The notes under the pieces are model-generated. The model did no database searches. It saw nothing but the letters and a program-made list of their open reading frames with translations, and was not told where the DNA came from. A stretch of 64,000 nt of DNA, from assembly GCF_963921235.1 (NCBI RefSeq), contig NC_086097.1:49478001-49542000 (forward strand), in the 5' to 3' direction. Position numbers and translations under genes: made by a program. Positions 6,731 through 64,000 of the stretch are shown piece after piece; the stretch's first letter is position 1; each line of letters begins with the position of its first letter. Source of the DNA: Mobula hypostoma (Eukaryota).

Positions 6731-7569
6731 AAAGATCAAATAGTTGTAAGTTAAAACTAAATAATATTCCTTATTTAGCTTTTGGTCATAAACGGGAACC
6801 AACCTTCAGATTTAAATGTAAATGGAAAGCAATAATCAGTTTGAAGTTGTAAAAACACAGCTTTGCAAACAGGTGCAGCATCTATAGAAAGCAAGATGTT
6901 TGTCATTGCACCTGTATTATTGCTGGCTAATTTGGCTTGTTTCAAAATTGACAATGTGGGCTAGGTTATTTGATTCAAAGAATCTTGCAAATCAGATGCA
7001 GGGAATCACTTACAATAACTGATTTATTAATAGGTTGGGAATTTGTTGTACTCAAGGAAGTTAGCTTAACAGCATTAATTGTGAATAGCTGGGAGACTGT
7101 TATTGTAAAAAGTGTATGTGAGGAAATATCATAAATAAGTGAAGTCACCCTAGTGTTAGAAAAAATGTACATAAGTAGGGTGCAGTTTAGGCTTATTAGG
7201 AATGGTTAAAGTGCATCAAGAAGGATGATAGAAAGATGGGTCAGCAAGAATTCATTCCTCTGGCTTAGATTTCTGCAAAGGACAATACGTTCATCTGCAT
7301 CATTGGTATGTATTTTTTTAGCTTATTGGAATTGCACCTGTGTTTTGGAAATCCTTTGTGTTTTAGAAATGCTCTGTAATTTAGAAAAAAAATTATAAGA
7401 TAGAAATCCTGTGTAAGTTTTAAATGTTTTTTAAAGAATGTTGTTTGGATTTAAACGTGCATCACTGAAAGTAAATGAATTGTGTTTAAACTACTATGTT
7501 AGTTTCTTCTCCGTGGTAGAGACAGGGGACCAACCACTCAAATAGTGGGTAGTGGCAGTTAAACTCAAA

Positions 7570-7802
7570 GACAAGAAAATGTGTAGATGCTGGAAATCCA
7601 AAGCAAAAGTCACAAAATGCTGCAGGAACTCAGCGGGCCAGGCAGCATCTATGGAAAAAGGTAAACAGACGATGTTTCTTGTTGAGACCCTTCATCAGGA
7701 CAAAATAGTCCTGTATGAAGGATCTCGTCCTGAAACATCAACTGTTAGTTTTTTTCAATAGATGCCATCTGGCCTGCTGGGCTCCTCCCGCATTTTGTGT
7801 GG
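7570..7802. mobile_element. Old Penelope-like terminal repeat pair in inverted orientation
   Basis: Two decayed copies of the hammerhead-bearing terminus pointing outward from a 6-bp spacer (..CCCTTCATCAGGAC aaaata GTCCTGTATGAAGGATCTCG..). Confidence 0.7.
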
Positions 7803-19497: not shown

Positions 19498-20232
19498 TAT
19501 AACCCTCAGGTTCGGCCAGCGGCATTAGTCTAGGGAAGACAGTCTCTGGCCCCACCAAACTTGTGAAATCTGAGGTGCAAAACCTCTTGCTTGTGTGGAT
19601 GCTCTGTGATTGGTTCCCCCATTATAAATCAATACCACGAAATAACAGATAGTACACCATATGCAATTAAACGATTAAGCTTTATAATTCTTAATTTGAC
19701 AAAAGGGTTAGTAAAGTAAAACAAAAAGAAGAGGAGCAACACACATAAAAGTTGCTGGTGAACGCAGCAGGCCAGGCAGCACCTCTTCCTAGAGATGCTG
19801 CCTGGCCTGCTGCGTTCACCAGCAACTTTTATGTGTGTTGCTTGAATTTCCAGCATCTGCAGAATTCCTGTTGTTTACAAAAAGAAGAGGGCCCATTTTA
19901 ATGAAACAGTCTAATGTGCACATGTTGGAGCTCACGGTTTCCCTTCTGTTGGTCCTCCATCGATTTCCTCGGGCTTCTTTGACTCTCGGCTTCACTCCAA
20001 GTCCACTCTGTCCTGCTGGCTATGACATCTCCTTTTCAGACCTCTTCTCTTTTCATCTCTCAGCAAACAAAAGACCCAGATCACCTCATTTTTAGGCACA
20101 CAACAAAAAACAACACTTCCTTCATTGGATGGCGCACATGCCAAAGGTCCCGTTATCTCTAGCCATAACCCAAACATTGCTGCTACAGAAAAACCACTAC
20201 ATTAGCAGTGAAACCTGCCCCAGAGTGTTACA
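19498..20232 (-). repeat. 5' LTR of the PNMA-type Gypsy (interrupted by a Penelope-like insert)
   Basis: Colinear with 12548-13113 apart from the insert at 19735-19876; adjacent to the PBS. Confidence 0.92.
19735..19876 (+). mobile_element. Penelope-like foldback mini-insertion in the LTR
   Basis: Perfect 47-bp inverted arms (19735-19781 / 19796-19842) plus 34-nt tail; 14-bp TSD ACAAAAAGAAGAGG; the empty site is visible in the other LTR near 12756-12769. Confidence 0.92.
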
Positions 20233-25039: not shown

Positions 25040-25530
25040 GAGTTCCAGAGAAGTATAGGACAGAAACAACCCTTTGGCCCATCTACTCCATGCCAAAACC
25101 ATTTAACTGCCTATTCCCAATGACCTGCACCGGGACCATAGCCTTCCATATCTCTACTATCCACGTACCTATCCAAGCTTCTCTTAAACATTGAAATCGA
25201 GCTCACATGCACCAAGTGCACTGGCAGCTCATTCCACACTCTCATGACCCTCTGAGTGAAGAAGTTTTCCCTCATGTTCCCCTTAAACTTTTCACCGTTC
25301 ACCCTTAAAGTCATGACCTCTGGTTGTGGTCCCACTCAACCTCAATGGAAAAAGCCTGCTTGCATGTACCCTTTATAATTTATAATTTTGTATACCTCTA
25401 TCAAATTTTCTCTGTCTTCTACAGTCTAACCTCTTCAATCTTTCCTTATAATTCAGCTCCTCCAATTCCAACAACATCCTTGTAAATTCCAACAACATCC
25501 AAAACTGCACACAATACTCCAAATTCCTTT
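25040..25530 (-). mobile_element. CR1 LINE 3' fragment
   Basis: NFFTQRVMRVWNELP; LEYCVQFW; same family as 54265-54870. Confidence 0.8.
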
Positions 25531-29554: not shown

Positions 29555-30215
29555 ATCTCTCCATCTCTCAAATGGATGTTGCTCTGTTTTGAGGCTGCAC
29601 TTTCTGGTCCTAGACTCACACATTATAGTAAACATCCTCCCCACACCCACCATGTCTAAGCCTTTCAATATCGATATGTTTCAGTAAGATCCCCGCCTCA
29701 TTCTTTTATCCTCCAGCGAGAGCAGGTCCAGAGCCATCAAATGCTTCTCATAAGTTAACCCTTTCATTCACAGAATCATTCTCGTGACACTCACAACACG
29801 CTGGAGGAACTCAGCAGGTCGGGCAGCATCAGTGGAAACAATCAGTCAAAGTTTTGGGCCGGAACCTTTCGTCAGGACAAACCTTCGTGTTGTGAGCGTT
29901 GTTTTGACCCCAACATCCACAGAGTATTTCGTGTTCATCATTCTCGTGAACCTCCTCTGGATCCTTTCCATTGCCAGCACATTTTTTCTTAGATAGGGGG
30001 CCCAAAATTGCTCACAATACTTCAACTGTGGTGTGACCAATGCCTTATAAAGTCTCAGCATTACAGCCTTGCTTTTATATTCTAGTTCTCTCAAAATGAA
30101 CGCTAACATTACAGTTGCCTTCCTTACCACCAACTCAACCTGCAAGTTAATCTTTATAGAATTCTGCACAAGGACACCCAAGTCCCTTTGCACCTCTGAG
30201 TTTTAAATTTTCTCC
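29555..30215 (-). mobile_element. CR1 LINE fragment interrupted by a Penelope-like insert
   Basis: QRDLGVLV...LYKALVTPQLKYCEQFWAPYLRK...LAMERIQRRFTRM. Confidence 0.85.
29788..29936. mobile_element. Penelope-like mini-insertion (divergent subfamily)
   Basis: 13-bp TSD ATCATTCTCGTGA (29775-29787 / 29937-29949); inverted 5' part with a decayed hammerhead (minus strand CTGACGA...AAAA). Confidence 0.8.
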
Positions 30216-34472: not shown

Positions 34473-34645
34473 AGACAAAATGCTGGAGAAACCAAGCAAG
34501 TCAGACAGCATTTGTGCAGAGAAATAGGCAGTCTGTGATAAGGGTCAAGACCCTTCATCTTGGCTGTTCCTGCACCAGCGCTGCCTGATCTGATGAGTTC
34601 CTCCAGCATCTTGTTGATTGTTCCATATTCTGGCATCTGTAGTCT
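34473..34645. mobile_element. Old foldback Penelope-like remnant
   Basis: ACAAAATGCTGGAG...GACCCTTCATC followed by the inverted CTCCAGCATCTTGT...GCATCTGTAG. Confidence 0.55.
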
Positions 34646-40609: not shown

Positions 40610-42530
40610 CAAAATTCAAAGTTAATTTATTATCAAAGCACATATATGTCACCATATACAACCCTGAGATTCATTTTCTTGTGGGCATACTCAATAAATC
40701 CATAATAGAATCAATGATAGACAGCATCAACTTGGGTGTTCAACCAGTGTGCAAAAGGCAACAAACAGTGCAAATACAGAAAGAAAATAAATAAGCAATA
40801 AATACAGTATCGTGAACATGAGATGAAGAGTTATTGAAAGTGAGTCCATTGGTTGTGGGGCAACAATGGGACAAGTGAAGTTGAGTGAAATTATCCCCTT
40901 CAGTTCAAGAGCCTGATGAGGGGTATTAACTGTTTCTGAACGTGGTGCTGTGAGTCCTGAGGCTCCTGTACCACCTTCTTGATGGCAGCAGCAAGAAGGG
41001 AGCATGGCCTGAGTGATGGGGATCCCTGATGATGTATGCTGCTTTCCTGCGACACTGTTTCATGCAGATGTGCTTTACCTGTGATGAATTGGCCCATACC
41101 CACTAATTTTTGTGGGATTTTCCATTAATGAGTATCTGTGTTTTCACATCAGGCTGTGATGCAGCCAGTCAATATACTCTCCACTACGCATCTACAGAAG
41201 CTTGTCAAAGTTTTAGATGTCATGCTGAAGGAAGTGGAGGCACTGCCATGCTTCCTTGGTAATTGCACTTGTGTGCTGGGTGCAGGACAGGCTCCTCTGA
41301 AATAATAACACTGAGGAAATTAAAGTTGTTGACCCTCTTCACCTCTGATGAGAACTAGCTCATGGACCTCTGGTTTCCTCCTCCTAAAGTCAACAGTCCA
41401 ATCTGTGGTCTTGCTGACATGGAGTAAGAGGTCGTTGTTATGACACCACTCAGCCAGATTTTTAATCTCCCTCCTACATGCTGACTCATCACCACCTTTG
41501 ATTCAGCCTACCATAGTGGTGTCATCAGCAAACTTGAATTATGGCATTACAGCTGTGTTTAGCCACACACTCATAAGTTTAAAGCGAGCAGAGCAGGAGG
41601 CTAAGCACACAGTCTCTTGGTACACTTGCGCTGATGGAGATTGTGGAGGTGATGGTATTGCCAATCCGAACTGACTAGGGTCTGCAAGTGAGGAAATCGA
41701 GGATTCATTTACAAAGGAATTATTGAGGGATAAGTTTTGTAGCTTATTGATTAGTTTTGAGGGGATGATAGTATTGAATGCTTAGCTGTAGTCAATGCAA
41801 TTTTACTATCCAGATGCTCCATGGTTGAGTGAAGAGCCAGTAAAATGGCATCTGCTGTTGAACTATTGTGACAGTAAGCAAATTGGAGTGGATCCAAGTC
41901 ACTTCTCGGACAGGAGTTGATAATGTTTCATCATCAAACTCTCAAAGCATTTCATCACAGTCAGTAAAAGTGCTACTGGATGATAGTCTTTGAGGCACAT
42001 TGCCATATTCTCCTTAGGCACTGGTATAATTGAAGCCTGCTTGAAGTAGGTGGGTACCTCAGACTGCTGAAGCGAGAGGTTGAAGGTATCAGTGAACACT
42101 CCAGCCAATTGATCAATGTAGGTCTTTACTATTTGGTCAAGTACCCGTTCTGGGCCAGATGCTTTCCTTCGGTACACCTTCCTGAAGGGTGCTTTCATGG
42201 TGGCTTCCGAGACTAAAATCACAGGGTCATCATGGGCTGTGGGAGATCATGAAGGTGCCTCCCTGTTTTGATAGTCAAGGCAAGTATGAAAGGCACTGAA
42301 CTCATCTGGGAGCAAAACCTTGTCGCCTATGTCACTTGGTTTCACTTTGTAGGAGGTGATAGCATTAATGACCTTTACCGTTATCAAGCATCCTTCAGTG
42401 ATTCAAGTTTGGTCTGGAACTGCACCTTCATGTGTGAGGTGGCTTTCCGGAGCTTTGTACATGGTCCTCTTGTATTTTACTCGGGTCACCAGACCTGTAT
42501 GCCACTGAACTGGCCCTCAACGGATTGCAG
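40610..42530 (-). mobile_element. Rex1-type LINE fragment in ADSS1 intron 1
   Basis: KASGPE...DQLAGVFTDTFNLSLQQSEVPTYFKQASIIPVPK...DYHPVALLLTVMKCFE. Confidence 0.85.
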
Positions 42531-42781: not shown

Positions 42782-44259
42782 CAGTGGAAGTCAGAAGTTT
42801 AATACACTTAGGTTGAAGTCATTAAAACTCATTGTTTAACCACTCCATAGTTTTCATATTAGCAAACTATAGTTTTGGCAACACGTTGTGGATGACTACT
42901 TTGTGCATGACACGAATAAGTTTTCCAACAATTGTTTATAGACAGATTGTTTCACTTTTAATTAACTATATCACAATTCCAGTGGGTCAGAAGTTTACAA
43001 ACAAAATCAAAAGAAATCAGCCAAGATGTCAGAAAAAAAATTGTGGACCTCCACAAGTCTGGTTCATCCTTGGGAGCAATTTCCAAATGCCTGAAGGTAC
43101 CACATTCATCTGTACAAACAATAGTACACAAGTATAGACACCATGGGACCACGCAACCGTCATACCACTCAGGAAGGAGATGCACTCTGTCTCCTAGAGA
43201 TGAACGTACTTTGGCGCAAAAAGTGCAAATCAATCCCAGAACAACAGCAAAGGACCTTGTGAAGATTCTGGAGGAAACAGGTAGACAAATATCTAAATCC
43301 GCAGTAAAACAAGTCCCATATCGACATAATCTGAAAGGCTGCTCAGCAAGGAAGAAGCCACTGCTCCAAAACTGCCATTAAAAAAAAAACAAGACTACAG
43401 TTTCCAAGTGCACATGGGGACAAAGATCTTGAGAAATGTCCTCTGGTCTGATGAAACAAAAGTTGAACTGTTTGGCCATAATGACCATTGTTATGTTTGG
43501 AGGAAAAAGGGTGAGGCTTGCAAGCTGAAGAACACTATCCCAACCGTGAAGCGTGGGGGTGGCAGCATCATGTTGTGAGGGTGCTTTGCTGCTGGAGGGA
43601 CTGGTGCACTTCAGAAAATAGATGGCATCATGAGGAAGGAAAATTATGTGGATATATTGAAGCAACATCTCAAGACATCAGCCAGGAAGTTAAAGCTCAG
43701 TCGTAAATGGGTCTTTCAAATGGAGAATGACCCCAAGCATACCTCCAAAGTTGTGGCAAAATTGCTTAAGGACAACAAAGTCAAGGTATTGGAGTGGCCA
43801 TCACAAAACCCTGACCTCAATCCGATTTAAAAAAAAAAATAATAATAATAATTGTGGGCTGAACTGAAAAAGTGTGTGTGAGCAAGGAGGCCTACAAACC
43901 TGACTCAGTTACACCAGTTCTGTCTGGAGGAATGGAACAAAATTCCAGCAACTTATTGTGAGAAGCTTGTGGAAGGCTACCCAAAACACTTGACCCAAGT
44001 TAAACAATTTAAAGGCAATGCTACCAAATACTAACAAAGTGTCTGTAAACTTCTAACCCACTGGGAATGTGAGGAAAGAAATAAAAGCTGAAATAAAACA
44101 TTCTCTCTACTATTATTCTGATATTTCACATTCTTAAAATAAATAGTAATCCTAACTGACTTGACAGGGAATGTTTTCTAGGATTAAATGTCAGGAACTG
44201 TGAAAAACTGAGTTTAAATGTATTTGGCTAGGGTGTATGTAAACTTCTGACTTTGACTG
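42782..44259 (+). mobile_element. Sleeping Beauty-like Tc1 DNA transposon (IR/DR type), transposase pseudogene
   Basis: TA TSDs. Termini CAGTGGAAGTCAGAAGTTTA..ACACTTAGG and GTGTATGTAAACTTCTGACTTTGACTG; inner DRs CAGTGGGTCAGAAGTTTACA. KSKEISQD...DLHKSGSSLGAISK; WSDETK; FQMENDPKHTSK; WPSQNPDLNPI; ...KGNATKY*. Confidence 0.95.
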
Positions 44260-46940: not shown

Positions 46941-49180
46941 AGATGCTAACTTTGAATCGAGTAAAACAATCTACTGACCAAAGGCAACCCAAGTGATAAC
47001 AGGGCAGGAAGTGAAAAATCACGTGGGACATTATAAAGTAATTCCTGTGGAAAAAGTACTAGAGCCAGAGATGAGACATTGACACTAATGTTAATGCTAC
47101 AGGGAACAGCAAGACTTGGGCAGCAGAATTCCTTAACTAGGTCAGGAAAAAAAAAATTCTTCCTTCAAGCCCATGGGAATTCCAGAAAGCTTTTAAGTTG
47201 TTGAAATGGCCTTAGCTGCTTCTTCCTGCTCAGCTATTCTCCCCATGGTTTGGAATTAGGAATTAGCACCTACAATCTCCCAATTCAAAAATTAAAATTC
47301 CATTGCACTCTAAGTGATATCATTGGGGGATAAATGTCCCTGCCTTTCAGAACAAATAATCCTTATGAGTTTGTTGTGAGATAACTTTCCTATTCCTTGG
47401 CATCTTATGTTAACTACCTATTCCCACTAAACACTTCCCCACCTCATGTGTCTATATTTGTTACAGCTGTTATCCAAAATTAATATATACCTGAATAGTC
47501 TATGTATTGATCACGATATTCATTTTTTCACCTGCAGCCTTTTGAAGTGGTCTGGTCTTTCCCCAGACTGGAACTCTATGTGTTTTGTCACGTGGAGTCT
47601 AATACTGAGGCTACGTTCACACTAGACCAGATAATTTTGAAAACGCCGGTTTCGAGTAAAAATGACAGGCGTCCACACTATGCGTTTTTCAAAATATCTC
47701 TGTCCACATTAAAACGGATATTTGGGCGAATCTACTCCTACTGGGCCTGCACAGACACATCTACAGAAAACAAGCGAAGAGGAAATGGTATAATTTACGT
47801 TTCCACAGCGGCGTTGTGCTATTTCCATTGGTCAAAAACAACAACAACAGCGAAAGAAAGTTTTCAACAATGTCTTCGAGGAACACAAAGAAAACCTCCG
47901 CTGGAAAAAGCAGACCGGACTTCCTTGTTTAGACAGACAATGAAGTCAAGCTGTTTCTGCAAGTTACGAACGACTACAGAGTCGGCAAAGCAGTGGAGAA
48001 CGTGGGGATGTTTAACTCCAAACAAGCTATTAACGTAGACAATAAAGTAAACAACACATGCATGAAGCCGTTCTCAACCCAAGATCAACAAGAGAGTGGA
48101 ATCTTCTGCTGCCAGACCTGCGCAGTAGTTCTGACATTAATATTTTTAAAGATAGACTCAATCAAATCAATTTAAGGGATCTAGTCAAAAAAGCTCACTT
48201 TACAATTTAACTCTCAGGCCGTTCACACTGACTGCGCGTTATAACAGCTGCCCCGCAGTACCAAGCAGAAGCAGAAAAAGCATTGTTGTGTTGTTATGAC
48301 AGCGTTTTTAAATATCTCAGCTTACCCCATCCACGCTACAACGCGCAACATTCGTTTTCAAATTTACACACTCTGGAGAGTGTTTTAGAAAAGCTCTGTT
48401 TTCAGTGGATGAAAACGTTGCTTCAATGTGGACAGAGGCCCCCACCACTAAGCACATCTTTCCCTCCCCCCCCCTGCATTCCGCAGGGATCGCTCCCTGC
48501 ACAACTCCCTTGTCCATTCGTCCCCCCCATCCCTCCCCACTGATCTCCCTCCTGGCACTTATCCGTGTAAGTGGAACAAGTGCTACACATGCCCTTACAC
48601 TTCCTCCCTTACCACCATTCAGGGCCCCAAACAGTCCTTCCAGGTGAGGCATCACTTCACCTGTGAGTCGACTGGGGTGATATACTGCGTCCGGTGCTCC
48701 CGATGTGGCCTTTTATATATTGGTGAGACCCGACGCAGACTGGGAGACTGCTTTGCTGAACATCTACGCTCTGTCCGCCAGAGAAAGCAGGATCTCCCAG
48801 TGGCCACACATTTTAATTCCACATCCCATTCCCATTCTGACATGTCTATCCACGGCCTCCTCTACTGTAAAGATGAAGCCACACTCAGGTTGGAGGAACA
48901 ACACCTTATATTCCGTCTGGGTAGCCTCCAACCTGATGGCATGAACATTGACTTCTCTAACTTCCGCTAAGGCCCCACCTCCCCCTCGTACCCCATCTGT
49001 TACTCATTTTTATGCACACATTCTTTCTCTCACTCTCCTTTTTCTCCCTCTGTCCCTCTGAATATACCTCTTGCCCATCCTCTGGGTCACCCCCCCCCCC
49101 GTCTTTCTTCCCGGACCTCCTGTCCCATGATCCTCTCGTATCCCCTTTTGCCTATCACCTGTCCAGCCCTCGGCTCTATC

Positions 49181-49269
49181 CCTCCCCCTCCTGTCTTCTC
49201 CTATCATTTTGGATCTCCCCCTCCCCCTCCTGTCTTCTCCTATCATTTTGGATCTCCCCCTCCCCCTCC
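49181..49269 (+). repeat. 39-bp tandem duplication
   Basis: CCTCCCCCTCCTGTCTTCTCCTATCATTTTGGATCTCCC x2; single copy in the 62320-62370 relative. Confidence 0.85.
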
Positions 49270-49304
49270 AGCTTTCAAATCCCTTACTCACTCTTCCTTC
49301 AGTT

Positions 49305-49340
49305 AGTCCTGACGAAGGGTCTCGGCCTGAAACGTCGACT
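49305..49340 (+). ncRNA. Minimal type I hammerhead ribozyme motif
   Basis: AGTC-CTGACGA-A-GGGT(CTCG)GCCT-GAAA-CG-TC^GACT; predicted cleavage after C49336. Confidence 0.8.
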
Positions 49341-50306
49341 GCGCCTCTTCCTATAGATGCTGCTTGGCCTGCTGCGTTCACCAGCAACTTTGATGTATGT
49401 TGCTTGAATTTCCAGCATCTGCAGAATTCCTGTTGTTTGAAGAGAAAAAGCTTTGTTTTCAAAATTATCCGACATAGTGTGGACATAGCCTAAGTTATGA
49501 AACTTAAAGCTGTGCAACTGTAATGAGTTATGAAGAGAAATTAGTACTTCTCTGAAGGTGGGAGGTAAAGGGGAGGGGTGGAGTTAAACAGTCTGCATAA
49601 TACACTGATGTACAATATATTGTAGTATAGTTCTGTGTATGTTACACACACTCATGGAGGTTATTGTGCATAATTAGTGACTTCATATGCCATGCAGCAT
49701 GCAATTGATGTCATGAGCATGCTTTTCACAGAGATTTATTTTGATAAGTAATTTCATTACTTCATAGTCTGCTGCTTCCAACCATTGGGTAACCCAACAT
49801 TTAATCTCAGAATTTTGCATGCATGGCCCTTAGTTGAATCTTTGAAGGTTCATCAAAAGGTTAAATTATAATTTCAATAACTTGTGCAAATCCTCATTCC
49901 TTATTGGTTAATTCAAGCGTATCATTGCAATTAATGCATACCTCTCCTTTAGGCTCCTCAGCCGCAGTATCAACCACCCAGCTGTCATTATTTCCATACA
50001 ATATTGATCTCTGGCCAACTCACCAGTGTTCTCCGGGCTCTGATGTGAAGCCAACCAACACCACCTAAACATCCACGGTTTTAACATTCCCTCAGGTCCT
50101 GACTAAGACTCTAACCATCAGCCCCACACCTGACAAATAACCTCACTGCGATCTCGCGTCTTGTACATTTAATTGCATCTGAATATATCCAATGGCAGTT
50201 CAATAACCTGCATCCTCGGACACTAAAGAAGTGTGCAGAAAGACTTCACAGTTTATACAACAACCCTTGCGTATCTGTTAGGGCATTTGATGTATGGTTA
50301 TTTAGG

Positions 50307-53174: not shown

Positions 53175-53401
53175 AAATATTAGAGGGCGTAGCTTTAATA
53201 TGAGAGAAGGAATTTTTAAAGAAGGTATATGAGGCAAGTTTTTTGTAACACAGAAAGAAGCAGTTTTCTGAAATGTGTTGCCAAAGGATGTAGTGGAAGC
53301 AGATATGACAGCAGTGTTTCAAAGGCCTTTAGACATTCAAACAAGCAGGGAATGAAGGAATATAGATCATGTGCGGGCAAATGAGCAGTTTAATTTGGCA
53401 T

Positions 53402-54870
53402 CATGGAAATTGCTCGGGCCCTGGTAGAGATATTTAAATCATCCTTGGGGACAGGTGAAGTACCAGAGGATTGGAAGACAGACAAAGTTGTTCCATTGGT
53501 AAGAAAGGCTCTAAAAATGATAGGAAGTTATAGGCCAGTGAGTATGACATCTGTAGTGGGAAAGCTATTAGAAGTTGTTCTAAGGGACCAGATATATGAG
53601 TATTCATGTAGACATGGACAGGTTAGGGATAGTCAGCCTGGCATTGTACGTGGTATGTCATGTCTAACCAATCTTAGAGTTTTTCGAGGAAGTTACCAGG
53701 AAAATTGATAAAGGCAAGGCAGTGGATCTTGTCTACTTGGATTTAGCAAGGCATTTGACAAGGTCTGGCATGGGAGTTTGGTCAAGAAGGTTCAGTCACT
53801 CAGCATTCAAGGTGACGTAGTAATTTGGATTAGATGTTGGCTTAGTGGGAGAAGCCAGAGAGTGGTAGTCTCTCGGACTGGAGCACTATGACTAGAGATA
53901 TGCCACAGGGATCAGTGCTGAGTACATTGTGGTTTGTTTGTATCAGTGATCTGGATGATAATATGGTTAATTGGATCAACAAATTTGCAGATTGCACCAA
54001 GTTTGGGAGTGTAGTGGACAGCGAGGAAGATTATCTTGAGTCTGGACCAGTTGGATAAATGGGCTGAAAAAATGGCAGATGGAATTTAATGCAGATAAAA
54101 GTGAGGGGTTGTACTTAAGTAGAACCAACTGGTGTAGATCTTACACAGTGAACGCTCGGGCACTGAGGAGTACTGTAAAACAAAGGGATCTGAGAATACG
54201 GGTCCATAATTCATTGAAAGTGGCATCATAAATCAATAGGGCTATAAAGAAAGCTTTTGACACATTGGCCTTCATAGGTCAATGTATTGACTATAGGAGA
54301 TGGGAAGTTATGTTGAAGTTGTATAAGATGTTGGTGAGGCCTAATTTGGAGTATTGTGTGCTGTTTTGGTCACCTACCTACAGGAAAGAAGCAAATCAGT
54401 TTAAAAGAGTACAGAGAAAATTTACAAAGATGTTGCTGGGACTGGCGGACCTGAGCTATAAGGAAAGATTGAATAGGTTAGGACTTTATTGCTTGGAGCA
54501 TAGAAGATTGAAGGGAGATTTGATAGCGATATACAAAATTGAAAGGTATGATAGGGTAAATGCAAGCAGGCTTTTTCCACTGAGGTTGGGTGGGACTACA
54601 ACTAGAGGTCATGGGTTAAGGGTGAAAATTTTAAGAGGAACATGAGGGGAGACCTTTTCACTCAGAGGTTCATGAGAGCATGGAATGAGCTGCTAGCGCA
54701 AGTGATGCATGCACGCTTGATTTCAACATTTAAGAGAAGTTTGGATAGGTATGTGGATGGTAGTGTTATGGAGAACTATGGTCCTGGTGCAGGTTGATAG
54801 TAGGCAGTTTAAATGGTACAACGTGGACTAGATGGGCTGAAGATCCTGTTTCTGTGTTGTATTTTTCTCT
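53402..54870 (+). mobile_element. CR1 LINE RT fragment in ADSS1 intron 3
   Basis: TGEVPEDWK...SYRPVSMTSVVGKLLE; LYKMLVRPNLEYCVLFWSP. Confidence 0.9.
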
Positions 54871-57980: not shown

Positions 57981-58088
57981 TATTGGCACAACAAAGAAAG
58001 GAATAGGACCAACATATTCTTCAAAAGCAGCTCGAACTGGTCTTCGTGTCTGTGACCTTTTGGCTGACTTCAATGACTTCAGTGCCAG
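57981..58088 (+). CDS. ADSS1: ADSS1 coding exon 6 (108 bp)
   Basis: ttctag|(N)[35 protein letters not shown](R)|gtaacc; IMP-binding GTTKKGIGP motif. Confidence 0.97.
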
Positions 58089-58752
58089 GTAACCAAAACT
58101 GTGGTTAAACATCAGAATTTAAATGGAATAACCGATTATAACATGGTAGTGATGGTTGTGCTGCATGTCTGTATTGTGTGTTGACCAAATTAGAAGAAAT
58201 ACCAATTAACAGTAGAATGTTAGTAAGCAACTCCCATGTAGCTACTTGGAAATAGGTTTTGTAATAATGTTTGATATTGGCTAAGCATTGCTAAATTTGA
58301 TAAAGGAGGAGAAAAATAGATTTAAAGCAGAAAATTGGCGCAAAACAAATAATAGATACTTTTAGTGCTGATTTAACAAAAACCTACTGAACTTACTTGT
58401 TATAAATTCTGTCTAAGTGTGATTTAGTCAATGCAAAAGTTGATATTTTATTTCAAAAACTTACTTGTATTTCAAAAAATGTTTGTCTGAAATGACAATA
58501 TTATGCTTATAAGGACAATTAATGCTGACCATTACTAAATGCAGATAATTTTTAACTCTATTCTGATCAATGAAGGCTGACAGCAGTGGGGCATTGAGTT
58601 AAACTTTGAACTTGCACATGATGATCAAGTACATAAAATTATGAAAGGCATTTATAGATGAGACAATAAGACACTTTTCTCCATAGCAGAGTAGTCTGGA
58701 ACTAGAGGGCTTAAGATTAGAGAAGATCGCGGCAAAATTGTTTCACCTAGAG

Positions 58753-58804
58753 CAAGGATTCCCAACCTGGGGTCCGTGGCTTAAAAAAAGGTTGTGAACC
58801 TCTG
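58753..58804. mobile_element. 52-bp hAT/Charlie micro-MITE
   Basis: CAAGGATTCCCAACCT...AGGTTGTGAACCTCTG; 8-bp TSD ACCTAGAG / ACCTACAG. Confidence 0.7.
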
Positions 58805-59598
58805 ACCTACAGGGTTATTAGAATCCGGGATGCATTAACTGCCAGAGATTCTCATGACATTAAAGAAGTATTTGAATGATTCAAAGTCAAAGTACATTTA
58901 TTATCAAAGTATGTATACAATATGCAACCCTAATGCGAGATTCATCATCCCACAGACAGCCATGAAACAAAGAAATACCATGGAACCCATTCAAAGAAAA
59001 TATCAAGTACCCAGCGCACAAAAAAGAACAAATAGTGCAAATGGCAAAAAAAAATGAGTGAAAAACACAGAATATAAAACATCAAACTATAGAGTCATTG
59101 AAACAGTCTAGGAACGTTAAGTTTAGTTCAGTTCAGTTTAATGAACTGAATGAATATGTAAATCACCAAAGGGTAGTGCTGTTAGATATTATTAGTATCG
59201 ATGGATGTTCGATAATTGAATGTGAACTGAACAGTCTCTTTCTGTGCTGTATGCTTTTTTGTCTCTAGGGTCATGGTAGCCGTCATTTAAACTCTAAATA
59301 TAATTTATGTGTTAGGAGTTTCTGCTGGAAACCAGGTACGTCATGAATCCCGTAATTAGCCTGACAATTTAATTATAGCTTTGCCATTTCTTTAATTAGT
59401 GGATGGAATCTTTGATCAGAGGCCAGACAATCACTGAGCTGAGCAGGTTGTGTGTCAATAGAGTAATGTTGGATTATGCTAGCACGGAACAAGCAAACAC
59501 AGAACAGGCTGAACCACCATCTTCTGTGCTGAAATATCAAGTACAAAAGGAAAGGATACAAACAAAGATGTTTTATATAATTTTTCTATCTCTGACAG

Positions 59599-59680
59599 AT
59601 TTAAACTTCTGGCACAACAATATCAGTCCATGTTCCCAAGTCTGAAAATTGATGTTGAAGGACAGCTAAAAAAGTTAAAG
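59599..59680 (+). CDS. ADSS1: ADSS1 coding exon 7 (82 bp); gene continues beyond the window
   Basis: tgacag|(R)[27 protein letters not shown]|gtaaaa. Exons 1-7 sum to 648 nt (216 codons) with no stop. The next exon (GFAERIRPM-like) was not found before 64000. Confidence 0.96.
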
Positions 59681-60597
59681 GTAAAAGCATGAGGGGATGT
59701 TCCTAACTAAAAGTATTTATTGTTATGTTAATCAAACTGAATCTGAAAATACACCTGGACTATATCATGGCATCATGCATTTACTTCTCATAACAGAGTA
59801 TATGCTATAACCTTGACAGTAACCTTCTGTTGGAATGATTCAAAACTAATCTTTCCACAAGATTATATTCTACCTTCTACAATAATTCTTCATTTTCATA
59901 TTCATTTCTGTAATATGACAAGAACATAAGCAAGTTAGAAGGTACCGTAATGTGATATACTATACTGTAAAGATACTGCAAATGCTGTAATCTGGAATAA
60001 AAACAAACTACTGAAAGAACTCAGTGGTTCAGGCAACTTTAGTGCAGGCAGAGAAGTTGATATTTCAGGTTGAGACCCTGCATCAGTATCTCTCTATCTC
60101 TGCCTCTGATACTGTCTCTCACCTCCCTCTATTAAGCCCACTATCCATCTATTCTAGATTTCACTTCTGCAGTGACAGGAACTTGTAGAGGGAAGGGCTT
60201 TGTGTCATTACTCTCGTGAAAAGCTCCCTTTACTGCATAAAGCACTGGGACTTCATATTTGCAAGAATATCACCGACAAAAGGCTCCACACAAAACTACC
60301 AAGGCTGCCATGCCGCCATCATAAACACTGAGTTACTGTTTGCTGAGAATATTCTCCTTTAAGTAAACATTGAAAAGCCATAGAATCATAGGGCACTACT
60401 GTACAGAAATAGGCTCCTCAGTCCACCTACTATGTGCCAAGGGTAGTGTGGGTACGGAACGAGCTGTCGGCAGAAGTGGTAGATGCAGGTTTGATTTCAA
60501 CATTTAAGATACGTTTGGATAAGTACATGGATGGGAGGAGCCCATAACATGCTTCTGGAAATACAATGGACATCACCAATAAACATTTTTGGGTGCC

Positions 60598-60895
60598 ATA
60601 TAGAGTAGTGGTTCGTGCAATGCTATTACAGCTCAGAGTGTCAGAGTACGGATTTCAATTCCTGCTTCATCTGTAAGGTGTTTGTACATCCTCCCCATGA
60701 ATACATGGGTTTCTTTTGGGTGCTCCAGTTTCCTCCCACATTTCTAAAGATGTACTGGTTAGTGGATTAATTGGTCATTGTAAATTGTCCTGTGATTAGT
60801 CTAGCGTTAAATCAATGGGTTGATGGTCCAGGCGGCTTGTTGAGCCTGAAGGGTCTGTTCCACTTTGTATCTCTAAATATGATAAACAAATAATA
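60598..60895 (+). mobile_element. V-SINE (HE1-like)
   Basis: tRNA-like head then V-domain GGGTTTCTTTTGGGTGCTCCAGTTTCCTCCCACA; A-rich tail. Confidence 0.75.
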
Positions 60896-62019
60896 AATAT
60901 ATCCCTTATACCAATAATACCTCCTCAAAAGATTCAACTGGTTTGGTCAGAAATGAACAATCCTTCAAAAACTTGGATTTAGGAACAACAATCATAATCT
61001 TCAGACAGAAAAGTTTTAATCAACATGTCCTACTCTTAGAGATGTTAAAAATGTAAAGATCAAGCAGAAACAATGCATATTCCTTTTATTAAAATTCATT
61101 CTCCAGCTAAAGTCTCTGCTGGCTTTCCTCAGTTGACCTGAGATTGTGTAGTTCTTCCATTTGAAGAGTTACCATCTAATTTTAGTTGCGATAAGATAAA
61201 TATCCTGATAATCTGCTTCAGAAGGCAGTGAAATGTGACCACATGACATTGGACAGAAGTTAAATACTGTAAGGAACTCGAATGAATGCTGAATTCTCTA
61301 CCTTACAACATACGTGTTGTGTCTTTCACCAATCTAGCAATGTCATGATCACAATGATACCAAGCTTTGTTTAAAATAGATTTTTCCACAACAGAGTTCA
61401 AACTTGCCCACTGTTGAGATCTTAATTTAAGTTTACTGGATTAATAGCCAGAGGAGGTTACTAGTCCTGTAAATCTATTTTCTTCAGTTTTGCCACCTGA
61501 AAATTCCTGTTTCTTATAATTATATAGAAACATGATACTGTGATAGTGAAGAATGAGAAAGGATTCAAGACACATCTTGTTTCCCTTTTTCCTTGTCTCT
61601 ACCCAATGTAAAACAAATACCTGAAGCAACCTCAGAAGGGGTTGCTAGCAAATTCTCAACTTCCATGTAGTGGGTATATGAAATGTCTTGCTTGGGCTTG
61701 AGGCTCTGAAGCTGCTATTTTTAGGCTGTAGGCATGACTGCAAATCTTGCAATCAGAACAGTTCATTGAAGTATCCTTCCACTGAATTTATATTATATTG
61801 GAGACCACCAGGACTATTTTAATGATCTGGATTTTCAAACAGGGTGCACACTAAATGTTCTTTACATGAGATGCATTCCCATACACTATAATTTAGCACA
61901 TCCAACCGTTGTATAGTTAAAGCAGCAAATGTGGTGGTTAGCATGAAATTATTAAGGCAACACACACAAAAAATGCTGGTGAATGCAGCAGGCCAAGCAG
62001 CATCTATAAGAAGAGGTAC

Positions 62020-62055
62020 AGTCGACATTTCAGGCCGAGACCCTTCGTCAGGACT
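62020..62055 (-). ncRNA. Minimal hammerhead motif, antisense copy (C>T in helix III)
   Basis: Minus strand AGTC-CTGACGA-A-GGGT(CTCG)GCCT-GAAA-TG-TC-GACT. Confidence 0.65.
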
Positions 62056-62405
62056 AACTGAAAGAAGAGATAGTAAGAGGCATGAACATTGACTTCTCTA
62101 AGTTCTGTTAATACCCCACCTCCCCTTCGTACCCCATCCCTTATTTATTTATTTTTTATTTTTTTTTTTCTCTCACTCTGTCCCTCTCACTATGCTCCTT
62201 GCCCATCCTCTGGGCTCCCCTCCCCCTTTCTTTCTCCCTAGGCCTCCCGTCCCATGATCCTCTCCCTTCTCCAGCCTCGTATCCCTTTTGCCAATCAACT
62301 TTCCAGCTCTTAGCTCCATCCGTCCCCCTCCTGTATTCTCCCATCATTTCGGATCTCCCCCTCCCCCTCCAACCTTCAAATCTCTTACTATCTGTTCTTT
62401 CAGTT

Positions 62406-62441
62406 AGTCCTGACGAAGGGTCTCGGCCCGAAACGTCGACT
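62406..62441 (+). ncRNA. Minimal type I hammerhead ribozyme motif
   Basis: AGTC-CTGACGA-A-GGGT(CTCG)GCCC-GAAA-CG-TC^GACT; predicted cleavage after C62437. Confidence 0.82.
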
Positions 62442-64000
62442 GTAGCTCTTCCTATAGATGCTGCCTGGCCTGCTGCATTCACCAGCATTTTTTGTGCGTG
62501 TTGCTTGAATTTCCAGCATCTGCAGATTTCCTCGTGTTTGCACTATGAAATTATTAATTTGAGTTTAGCTTCTAACTGAATGTATTGACACAATGGAAAT
62601 GGTACTGGGTGTTACAGGATATAGGAGTATTAAACCCTGTGCCCATAATATTGTATCTGAATTTAATATTGTAAATGCACCAGGCATTTACCTTGCCTAT
62701 ATAATTACTGTGACCTTGTGCACAAGGCATTAAGGCCCGCCAAGCCAGAACTATAAAGCTCCTCAAACAATTACATTGAAATGTTGATAAACTGGACAGA
62801 TTCTGAAACAATGTGTGCCAGTGGAAATAGTAAATTCAATGTCATATTAAGTTAGGAAGTGTGGAAAAGAAAGACTGGTTAAAACAGAGAGGAATACAGT
62901 GACGGTAAAAAGAGACCTAAGGAAAAATAACTGCTAAAATATGAAGGAAAGAGACTCCAGGTTTATCAAAAACAATTTTCATTGCTAGAAGGTATGGTTA
63001 ATATCGCTGGAGTATGTGAATGCAGTGGGTGGAGGGGGGTCCATGCAGTGAATATGGTTTTCAAGTTAATAAGGAAGAATAGAGCATCTGGGATAAGAGA
63101 CTCCACTTATCATATTAAACCATCACCTTCACTCGAATGAAATTGCTGTATGATGAATGACGGGAGGCACTGTTGGCCTCTTATTTAGTAGTAAATTCTG
63201 ACCATTCAGACGGCATCTAATTACATGCATGTGTGATTTTTACCAGTAATTCTCAAGCCAATCTATAGTCCTGTAGAGTGTGAAGGAAATGATATGAGGA
63301 ATGAGAAGGTTCTTCTAGGTCAGCAGTATATCTAACTGACACTGCAAATAATGTGGTTCATTTCATTAAGTTAGTGTTCCTTGCTGCAAGAAGACCTACT
63401 GTATGGTGTTTGAGTAGCAGTGGATTGTTACCTTTCCCTGCAGCTACATGGCCACTTTCAGAACAGGGTCATTTGTTAATAATAAATATTAATGAACATC
63501 ACACATTTTGCAAACTTTGCATGGTACTTCTTTGTGCATGATACAGCTATCCTTCACACAACTTTAAGCACATAAGGCTGGCTCAGTCCTGATGTAATAT
63601 TTAGTTGATTGTCTCCCACATGAAATTATGTTCCAGTTGTGTAATTAAAATGCAGTTTGAGGTCACATGACAGAATGCATGCCTTTACATAGAGATAGGG
63701 ACCTGCCCTGCACCTGAACTGGTTAAAGAGATCTTAGGCAATTTGCATTTTGCTGCCCTTCAGTCAAGAGGCCCAGTCAGTGCTGCTGGAACTCATCTTC
63801 TACTGCTGGTGAGTGTTGAGCTTCACAGTGGCTGTCTCAGTGGTGGTTAATGGGTGCTCTGGTATGGTTTCTGCTGTTCCTATGGCATGATCAGTCGTCA
63901 GAGCACAAGGATGACTCACCAGAAGAACCCAAAAAAGAAGAGTGCCTATTGCCAGAAGAGCCTAAATGACACAAGGTCTACAGGGAGCAATCTTCTACAG

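What the first reader, a model, noticed from the sequence alone, without database searches (positions are those of the whole stretch)
62406..62441. Intact minimal hammerhead ribozyme, sense strand, in ADSS1 intron 7
Seen: complete catalytic core CUGACGA...GAAA...UC, stem I AGUC/GACU, stem II GGGU/GCCC with a CUCG loop. Helix III is reduced to the palindrome ACGU with no loop. Established: Penelope-like retroelements carry such minimal hammerheads, which are thought to cleave as dimers. Inference: this copy is transcribed in the ADSS1 pre-mRNA and could self-cleave after C62437 when paired with another copy.
Basis: partly seen in the sequence, partly recalled or inferred. Interest (0 to 1): 0.8.

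Follow-up and report, generated by a model that had tools for sequence, protein, structure and literature searches.

The report
Masked retrotransposon hammerhead in ADSS1 intron
The small self-cutting RNA motif is real, but it is the standard tail of a broken Penelope-like jumping gene with tens of thousands of copies in this genome, and in the host gene's RNA this copy is predicted to be zipped shut by the element's own mirror-image arm, so it is an ordinary example of a known kind.

Summary
The motif at 62406-62441 is as described: a minimal type I hammerhead with loopless ACGU helix III, sense strand, in intron 7 of ADSS1. It is the 3' pseudo-LTR of a 589-bp, 5'-truncated Penelope-like retrotransposon (61956-62544, 13-bp target-site duplication); longer copies encode PLE reverse transcriptase, a CxxxxCxxC linker and GIY-YIG. 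At least 57,093 copies exist. The core is about twice as conserved as the flank across copies (1.06 vs 2.09% loss per A/T site), fitting selection in source elements. In pre-mRNA it is predicted to be double-stranded (P about 1.0; 65 kcal/mol from the active fold). No intact sense partner lies in the gene. Cleavage of ADSS1 pre-mRNA is therefore unlikely; no RNA ends could be tested. The class was described in 2014, and this scan has noted it before in other introns and genomes. Ordinary; low interest.

The parts
61943..61955 (+). Left copy of the 13-bp A+T-rich target-site duplication
   Evidence: Identical to 62545-62557
61956..62079 (-). Inverted, truncated copy of the element's 3' end; holds an antisense copy of the hammerhead at 62020-62055 (2 changes). 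In the ADSS1 pre-mRNA it is the complement that masks the ribozyme
   Evidence: 117 of 124 bases match 62382-62505 on the other strand; inverted repeat I2; pairing probability
62079..62111 (+). Last 10 codons and stop of the PLE open reading frame (end of the GIY-YIG domain); the point of 5' truncation
   Evidence: Same C-terminal peptide ends the GIY-YIG frames of longer copies
62112..62544 (+). 3' untranslated part / pseudo-LTR of the element: pyrimidine-rich tract, hammerhead, conserved 3' end
   Evidence: Matches downstream of the RT in 11 of 12 RT-selected loci; 77% over 505 columns to the sister copy at 48938-49439
62406..62441 (+). Minimal type I hammerhead motif; predicted scissile bond between C62437 and G62438
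   Evidence: Sequence; descriptor features from PMC4209133
62506..62544 (+). About 35-40-nt 'tail' present on the direct arm only
   Evidence: Absent from the inverted arm; 62511-62541 present in 14 of 30 flank-anchored copies; feature described in PMC8557442
62545..62557 (+). Right copy of the target-site duplication
59599..59680 (+). ADSS1 exon 7 (82 nt, AG/GT bounded); intron 7 starts at 59681 and runs beyond the window
48452..49439 (+). Longer sister copy in ADSS1 intron 1: GIY-YIG remnant plus pseudo-LTR, hammerhead at 49305-49340 with G10.1-U11.1; nearest near-intact sense partner, 13.1 kb upstream
   Evidence: Pfam GIY-YIG E 0.016, below the curated cut-off

Best explanation
This is a passively carried relic. 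A Neptune-type Penelope-like retrotransposon inserted a 5'-truncated copy, with the usual inverted 5' piece and one-sided tail, into an A+T-rich site of ADSS1 intron 7 (shown: anatomy, duplication, family). In the source elements the motif works as a double hammerhead: two copies pair through the ACGU palindrome and swap stem I strands, each core cutting the partner's GUC, to process multimeric element RNA, probably with help from the element's protein (inferred from published work on other PLEs; not tested for this family). In the ADSS1 pre-mRNA this copy is transcribed (inferred from position) but folds with its own antisense arm into a ~124-bp duplex, has no intact partner nearby, does not cleave at a rate that matters, and is removed with the intron (predicted). 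It is intact because it is young, not because the host keeps it.
For: Family: 57,093 flank-anchored copies; PLE RT motifs, CxxxxCxxC linker and GIY-YIG in longer copies, RVT_1 E 9.8e-5 in 1 of 3 proteins scanned. Insertion marks: 13-bp duplication, inverted arm, tail. Masking: P(paired to upstream arm) 0.95-1.0 at 34 of 36 positions, active fold 65.1 kcal/mol above the minimum, same in a 631-nt and a 1401-nt context. Alone, decoy GACG/CGUC pairing P 0.98-1.0; active dimer -14.7 vs two decoy monomers -23.8 kcal/mol. Intactness is common: among 30 copies picked by flanks only, 20 keep the core, 14 keep core, stems and palindrome, 3 are identical to this 36-mer. Arms differ at 7 of 124 sites. Literature: single min-HHR showed no cleavage and dimers low cleavage (PMC4209133); the anole PLE hammerhead cleaved only with protein and no RNA-seq ends were found at its site (PMC11167929); 8 of 9 Xenopus dimers did not cleave (bioRxiv 10.64898/2026.07.22.740005).
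Against: Folding is an equilibrium nearest-neighbour prediction at 37 C that ignores the hammerhead's tertiary energy, proteins, editing and co-transcriptional kinetics. The core is more conserved than non-core and flank positions across copies (1.06, 1.65, 2.09% loss per A/T site), so the motif has been under constraint in the family; I read this as selection in source elements, but mutation-context effects or selection on inserted copies are not excluded. Neither RVT_1 nor GIY-YIG reached Pfam's cut-off, and 2 of 3 proteins had no match. No cleavage assay or raw RNA reads were available.
Confidence: 0.9

Rival explanations
1. One reading: the copy cleaves ADSS1 pre-mRNA after C62437 by dimerising with another copy (in cis from another intron, or in trans), affecting splicing or mRNA level.
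For: All core bases, G10.1-C11.1, both stems and the palindrome are intact and sense. Other sense copies exist in the transcription unit at window-equivalent 49305, 70429, 84212, 84375, and tens of thousands genome-wide. PLE hammerheads can cleave as dimers (PMC4209133; review PMC6765202).
Against: Masked by the upstream arm (65 kcal/mol). Partners are damaged: G10.1-U11.1 at 49305; C3 changed at 70429, which is also covered by its own inverted arm at 69824-69934. Active dimer is 9 kcal/mol less stable than two decoy monomers and 17 less than the best alternative dimer.
Confidence: 0.04
2. The insertion matters to the host, but as a 124-bp double-stranded hairpin (A-to-I editing substrate, splicing or back-splicing influence), not as a ribozyme.
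For: Near-perfect inverted arms 300 nt apart within one intron; a second inverted pair lies in intron 8. That such duplexes are edited is established knowledge, recalled, not tested here.
Against: The insertion is about 2.3 kb from exon 7 and 4.8 kb from exon 8; inverted arms are routine for the family (5 of 30 copies have one covering the hammerhead within 1.5 kb upstream, two of the five being one pair); no effect shown. Editing is likely, a functional consequence is not.
Confidence: 0.05
3. The motif is a chance look-alike or a dead vestige with no ribozyme role even in source elements (kept for DNA-level or protein-binding reasons).
For: No Rfam match; a common subfamily-like variant breaks G10.1-C11.1 into G-U (16 of 30 copies); hammerhead cleavage was not needed for PLE insertion in vitro (PMC11167929); Naiads proliferate without canonical hammerheads (PMC8557442).
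Against: All four non-descriptor traits listed for min-HHRs are met or partly met (extra base between 9 and 10.1, G10.1-C11.1 in this copy, palindromic 15.2-16.2, large family); position in the pseudo-LTR; core twice as conserved as flank; older subfamilies in the same loci keep recognisable CUGAnGA...GAAA. This rival concerns the family and overlaps the best explanation for this copy.
Confidence: 0.1

Closest known systems
Minimal hammerheads (min-HHR) in pseudo-LTRs of metazoan Penelope-like elements (Cervera and De la Pena 2014, PMC4209133)
   Same: Type I, no loop 3, palindromic 15.1-16.1, extra base between A9 and G10.1, short helix I, location in the pLTR, mostly single dispersed copies from truncated elements, opposite-strand pairs 100-700 bp apart.
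   Different: Helix II is 4 bp (7-8 bp in Schistosoma). Copy number is at least 57,093 against about 4,000 and 9,000 reported for coelacanth and Xenopus, by a different method. About half of sampled copies have G-U at 10.1-11.1. No shark or ray term was found in the one supplement that could be searched for them with hits or in my searches.
Neptune clade of endonuclease-bearing PLEs (as summarised in Craig et al. 2021, PMC8557442)
   Same: Single ORF with RT then C-terminal GIY-YIG with CCHH, CX2-5CxxC linker, heavy 5' truncation, inverted 5' piece, 30-40-bp one-sided tail.
   Different: No tree was built, so Neptune is not separated from Nematis, which shares the linker. This copy has a clear 13-bp duplication at an A+T-rich site rather than a microsatellite target.
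Poseidon element of Anolis carolinensis, PAc (Frangieh et al. 2024, PMC11167929)
   Same: PLE hammerhead near the element's end, tail set by two alternative ends, insertion at A+T-rich DNA with an ATT motif (present in this duplication).
   Different: Different clade (no Cys linker in Penelope/Poseidon); PAc was tested in vitro, this family was not.
Ultraconserved intronic hammerheads of amniotes (e.g. RECK; seen only as reference titles and a figure legend)
   Same: Type I hammerhead, sense strand, inside a large intron.
   Different: Those are few, conserved across species, have canonical helices with loop-loop contacts and work as monomers (recalled). This one is a young repeat copy without helix III loop and is masked.
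Non-LTR retrozymes (PMC7229834; bioRxiv 10.64898/2026.07.22.740005)
   Same: Type I hammerhead related to PLE pseudo-LTRs.
   Different: Retrozymes are head-to-tail tandem repeats; this is a single direct copy with an inverted arm and an ORF remnant.

Membership tests
PLE minimal hammerhead (min-HHR) | Conserved core C3 U4 G5 A6 N7 G8 A9, G12 A13 A14 A15.1, U16.1 H17 | tested here: met
   Sequence at 62410-62437
PLE minimal hammerhead (min-HHR) | Helix I and helix II can form; G10.1-C11.1 pair; one unpaired base between 9 and 10.1 | tested here: met
   4-bp stems, stem II P about 0.9-1.0 and stem I 0.66-0.91 for the motif alone; A62417 extra
PLE minimal hammerhead (min-HHR) | No loop 3; palindromic 15.1-16.1 allowing a dimer | tested here: met
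   ACGU at 62433-62436; nested double-hammerhead evaluates at -14.7 kcal/mol, not the minimum
PLE minimal hammerhead (min-HHR) | Located in the pseudo-LTR of a PLE | tested here: met
   Follows the ORF stop at 62111; same sequence lies downstream of PLE RT in 11 of 12 loci
PLE minimal hammerhead (min-HHR) | Core conserved relative to neighbours across copies | tested here: met
   Of 57,093 copies: 52,982 keep 7 core A/T sites, 51,675 keep 6 non-core A/T sites, 50,309 keep 6 flank A/T sites; 1.06, 1.65, 2.09% per site. Context effects not excluded
PLE minimal hammerhead (min-HHR) | Self-cleavage as a dimer | not testable with these tools
   Needs an assay; only contigs, no raw RNA reads, were on offer
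Penelope-like element (EN+) | Single ORF with PLE-type RT followed by GIY-YIG endonuclease | tested here: met
   DKG, YIDD and downstream motifs and GIY-YIG/CCHH read in L040, L046, L038 (motif names partly recalled, partly); RVT_1 E 9.8e-5 in 1 of 3; GIY-YIG E 0.016; both under Pfam cut-off. This copy holds only the last 10 codons
Penelope-like element (EN+) | 5' truncation, inverted 5' piece, 30-40-bp tail at one end | tested here: met
   inverted upstream pieces also in 5 of 12 RT-selected loci
Neptune clade | CX2-5CxxC linker between RT and endonuclease | tested here: met
   C-x4-C-x2-C in L040 and the sister copy at 48452-48970; definition from PMC8557442
Neptune clade | RT phylogeny placing it in Neptune rather than Nematis | not tested
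   No reference PLE proteins were fetched; no tree built
Non-LTR retrozyme | Two or more head-to-tail units each with a hammerhead | tested here: not met
   One direct copy plus one inverted arm; next direct copies 8 and 13 kb away
Host-domesticated intronic hammerhead | Free to fold and active as a monomer in the pre-mRNA | tested here: not met
   Predicted only: masked in context, decoy fold alone, no loop 3
Host-domesticated intronic hammerhead | Conserved at the orthologous site across distant species | tested here: inconclusive
   Contigs break at the repeat. A close relative's contig ends at 61980 as the source species' does, 25 letters into the element, under the 31 needed to call a bridge; a more distant one stops aligning at 61942 and resumes at 62659
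Rfam hammerhead families | Covariance-model match | tested here: not met
   No hammerhead among 6 matches at E up to 10 in 58000-64000

The most novel reading that the evidence does not exclude
Tens of thousands of intact dimer-type hammerheads lie in this genome, many in introns, and act as latent cut sites in host pre-mRNAs that fire when the element's protein or a partner RNA is present; the inverted 5' arm typical of PLE insertions is a built-in antisense lock, so sense intronic copies that survive selection are enriched for locked or core-mutated forms, and ADSS1 intron 7 is a locked one that editing or a helicase could open.
Probability: 0.05. Interest if true: 0.65.

Novelty: new member of a known kind. 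Interest (0 to 1): 0.14.

Why it matters
As it stands it adds one more copy to a class described in 2014 and says nothing special about ADSS1. Two by-products have modest value. First, a genome with at least 57,093 copies lets one measure constraint on the hammerhead core from counts alone (about twofold here), which bears on the open question whether PLE hammerheads are functional or passengers. Second, the inverted arm gives a simple reason why some sense intronic copies are harmless, testable genome-wide once introns are annotated. If the copy did cut ADSS1 pre-mRNA it would be a retrotransposon ribozyme acting on a muscle purine-cycle gene, but the evidence points against that.

Tried and rejected
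Rfam scan of 58000-64000: no hammerhead. Loose core pattern: not above chance. Chance origin rejected. Retrozyme rejected: no tandem array. ADSS2 considered because exon 1 scored higher on isozyme 2; rejected on exons 6 and 12 and the Siva neighbour; the two paralogues on C22 and C82 were not compared. Sequencing runs: no RNA holder listed. Laying 4 of the 24 listed runs: all contigs, so no start, end, strand or level of RNA; the run guessed to be RNA holds family sequence but cannot be tied to this locus; presence of the insertion in two other organisms could not be settled because contigs break at the repeat. The whole genome was not available as a file, so orientation bias in introns was not tested, and per-copy analyses rest on 30 loci, the first along contig C1, of 31,485 matches. 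Inverted arms were sought only 1.5 kb upstream, so 5 of 30 is a lower bound. The 9-site flank control (46,656 of 57,093) differs in base make-up from the 9-site core (51,605); I therefore added A/T-only comparisons. Lunse et al. 2017 on dimer cleavage could not be read; I saw only its title and a review's passage. Literature searches for a shark or ray report: 'Penelope, hammerhead, shark' gave 4 papers, none on this by listing or passages; 'minimal hammerhead, chondrichthyan' gave 0; 'Penelope, elasmobranch, genome, transposable elements' gave 4 listings, not read. One of two supplements of PMC4209133 could not be searched and bioRxiv supplements are closed; the bioRxiv survey includes one chondrichthyan, so such motifs may already be listed there. 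A search on intronic ribozymes and splicing gave 3 listings, not read. Look-up of earlier findings by sequence gave nothing.

Full report
Observation. The loose core pattern is not above chance in the window (8 vs 5.93 expected), but the specific form is: 3 matches at up to 3 mismatches against 0 in 100 shuffles. Rfam has no model that catches it.

Host gene. A Pfam search of the genome found three adenylosuccinate synthetase genes. In this one, seven exons lie in the window on the + strand, the seventh at 59599-59680, and the eighth begins at window-equivalent 67380 in the adjoining stretch. The motif is thus sense in intron 7. Exons 6 and 12 are closer to isozyme 1 than to isozyme 2 (62.8 vs 51 and 73.1 vs 59.5 bits), exon 1 the other way round (partly over a tag), and the genome's one Siva gene follows about 20 kb downstream; ADSS1 next to SIVA1 is recalled. 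ADSS1 is accepted. The organism is not given; a cartilaginous fish is my recollection of this repeat and the wording of earlier notes, not a test.

What carries the motif. The motif lies in a 589-bp insertion, 61956-62544, between two identical 13-bp A+T-rich copies. Its body begins with the last ten codons of a reading frame (62079-62111) that in longer copies ends a GIY-YIG domain (Pfam E 0.016, below cut-off). A search with an upstream part of that frame gave 150 scored matches of 48,864 candidates; in 11 of the 12 loci cut out, the same 3' end follows, and the frames show PLE reverse transcriptase motifs, a C-x4-C-x2-C linker and GIY-YIG with CCHH (RVT_1 E 9.8e-5 in 1 of 3 proteins). By the description in PMC8557442 (passages) the linker marks Neptune and Nematis, and 5' truncation, an inverted 5' piece and a 30-40-bp one-sided tail are typical. 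All three are here: 61956-62079 is the reverse complement of 62382-62505 at 117 of 124 bases, and the last 35-40 bases are on the direct arm only (the tail is in 14 of 30 sampled copies).

Copy number and conservation. A 28-nt form occurs 9,516 times exactly. Anchoring on flanks only gives 31,485 or, with shorter anchors, 57,093 copies, evenly on both strands; these are lower bounds. Of the 57,093, 51,605 keep 9 non-CpG core sites and 46,656 keep 9 flank sites. For A/T sites only, 52,982 keep 7 core, 51,675 keep 6 non-core ribozyme and 50,309 keep 6 flank sites, that is 1.06, 1.65 and 2.09% loss per site. The simplest cause is selection in source elements; neighbour-dependent mutation and subfamily differences in the flank are not excluded, and the figure says nothing on selection at this locus. 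Intactness is unremarkable: of 30 copies picked by flanks (the first along C1), 20 keep the core, 14 keep core, stems and palindrome, 5 of those also C11.1, and 3 equal this 36-mer. U at 11.1 occurs in 16 of 30, far above any other CpG site (at most 6 of 30), and goes with a flank variant (12 of 16 vs 4 of 14), so it looks like a subfamily.

Can this copy cut? Alone, the motif prefers a rod in which G5-G8 pair with C15.2-C17 (P 0.98-1.0), 4.0 kcal/mol below the open fold. The double hammerhead evaluates at -14.7 kcal/mol against -23.8 for two such monomers and -32.1 for the best alternative dimer; tertiary energy is not counted. In its real context the antisense arm is transcribed first; folding 61930-62560 or 61500-62900 pairs 34 of 36 bases with that arm at P 0.95-1.0 and puts the ribozyme-competent fold 65.1 kcal/mol higher. 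Other sense copies in or just after the gene lie at window-equivalent 49305 (1 change), 70429 (3, including C3, and itself covered by an inverted arm), 84212 and 84375 (6 each), 86743 (5) and 90794 (8). None is an intact neighbour. Published behaviour agrees: no cleavage by a single min-HHR and low cleavage by dimers (PMC4209133, parts 1-2 of 4 read); cleavage only with the element's protein, no need for it in insertion and no RNA-seq ends at the site (PMC11167929, parts 1-2 of 4); 1 of 9 Xenopus dimers cleaved (bioRxiv 10.64898/2026.07.22.740005, parts 1 and 3 of 5 and passages). That preprint also reports mild depletion of retrozymes in introns, which leaves room for weak harm by such motifs. 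Only 5 of 30 sampled copies have a masking arm within 1.5 kb, so masking is not the general rule; many unmasked copies exist, some share presumably sense in introns, and are tolerated (inference).

RNA and relatives. Only contigs were available, which cannot show ends or strand. A close relative's contig stops at the same base inside the left arm as the source species' contig, a hint, short of the tool's bridging rule, that the insertion is shared; a more distant organism was inconclusive.

Comparison and verdict. It is a member of the PLE minimal hammerheads of Cervera and De la Pena 2014 on every feature that could be tested; catalysis could not be. It is not a retrozyme and does not resemble a host-kept intronic hammerhead. 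Earlier notes of this scan report the same kind of motif in other introns of this and other genomes (unchecked AI notes, seen after my reading was formed). My searches found no paper on such motifs in sharks or rays, but one preprint surveyed a chondrichthyan and its supplements, and one supplement of the 2014 paper, could not be seen. Best explanation: a young, passively carried, self-masked relic (0.9). Cleavage of ADSS1 pre-mRNA: 0.04. Novelty: new member of a known kind. Interest 0.14.

Noticed in passing
L049-L078 (30 loci); window 49305-49340 and 62020-62055: About half of family copies (16 of 30) have U at position 11.1, giving G10.1-U11.1 in place of the pair described as highly conserved; it co-occurs with a flank variant, so a successful subfamily seems to carry it rather than CpG decay alone.
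   Followed up: partly
L033:2730-2890 (window-equivalent about 86730-86890): A short older PLE tail fragment about 310 nt after the ADSS1 stop codon begins exactly at the hammerhead core, is flanked by a 13-bp duplication and sits about 20 nt after an ATTAAA hexamer; possibly in or next to the 3' UTR. Core intact, stem I and palindrome damaged.
   Followed up: no
L031:5820-6480 (window-equivalent 69824-70470): A second PLE insertion with inverted arms in ADSS1 intron 8; its sense hammerhead has C3 changed and is covered by the antisense arm.
   Followed up: partly
window 19735-19842: A near-perfect 52-bp palindrome (98%, 4-nt gap) made of two head-to-head 3' ends of the same family, cut just downstream of the hammerhead.
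   Followed up: no
window 7566-7801, 29787-29882, 340-432, 34473-34560, 60001-60086: Older, more diverged subfamilies of the same PLE end with decayed hammerheads; the one at 7566-7801 is again an inverted pair.
   Followed up: partly
window 42962-43381: Frame resembling the N-terminal part of a Tc1-type transposase with an inverted repeat pair at 42947-43003 / 44040-44096; name recalled, not tested.
   Followed up: no
window 53394-54794, 25123-25488, 41899-42246: Fragments of LINE-type reverse transcriptase frames (CR1/L2-like by recollection) in ADSS1 introns and upstream.
   Followed up: no
G000 C1:49.51-49.56 Mb, C22:15.23-15.35 Mb, C82:13.71-13.75 Mb: The genome holds three adenylosuccinate synthetase genes, one more than mammals have by recollection.
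   Followed up: no
window 62410-62437: The monomer can pair G5-G8 with C15.2-C17, hiding core and cut site; with N7 = C or U the pairing holds, which could serve as a built-in off state for the family.
   Followed up: partly
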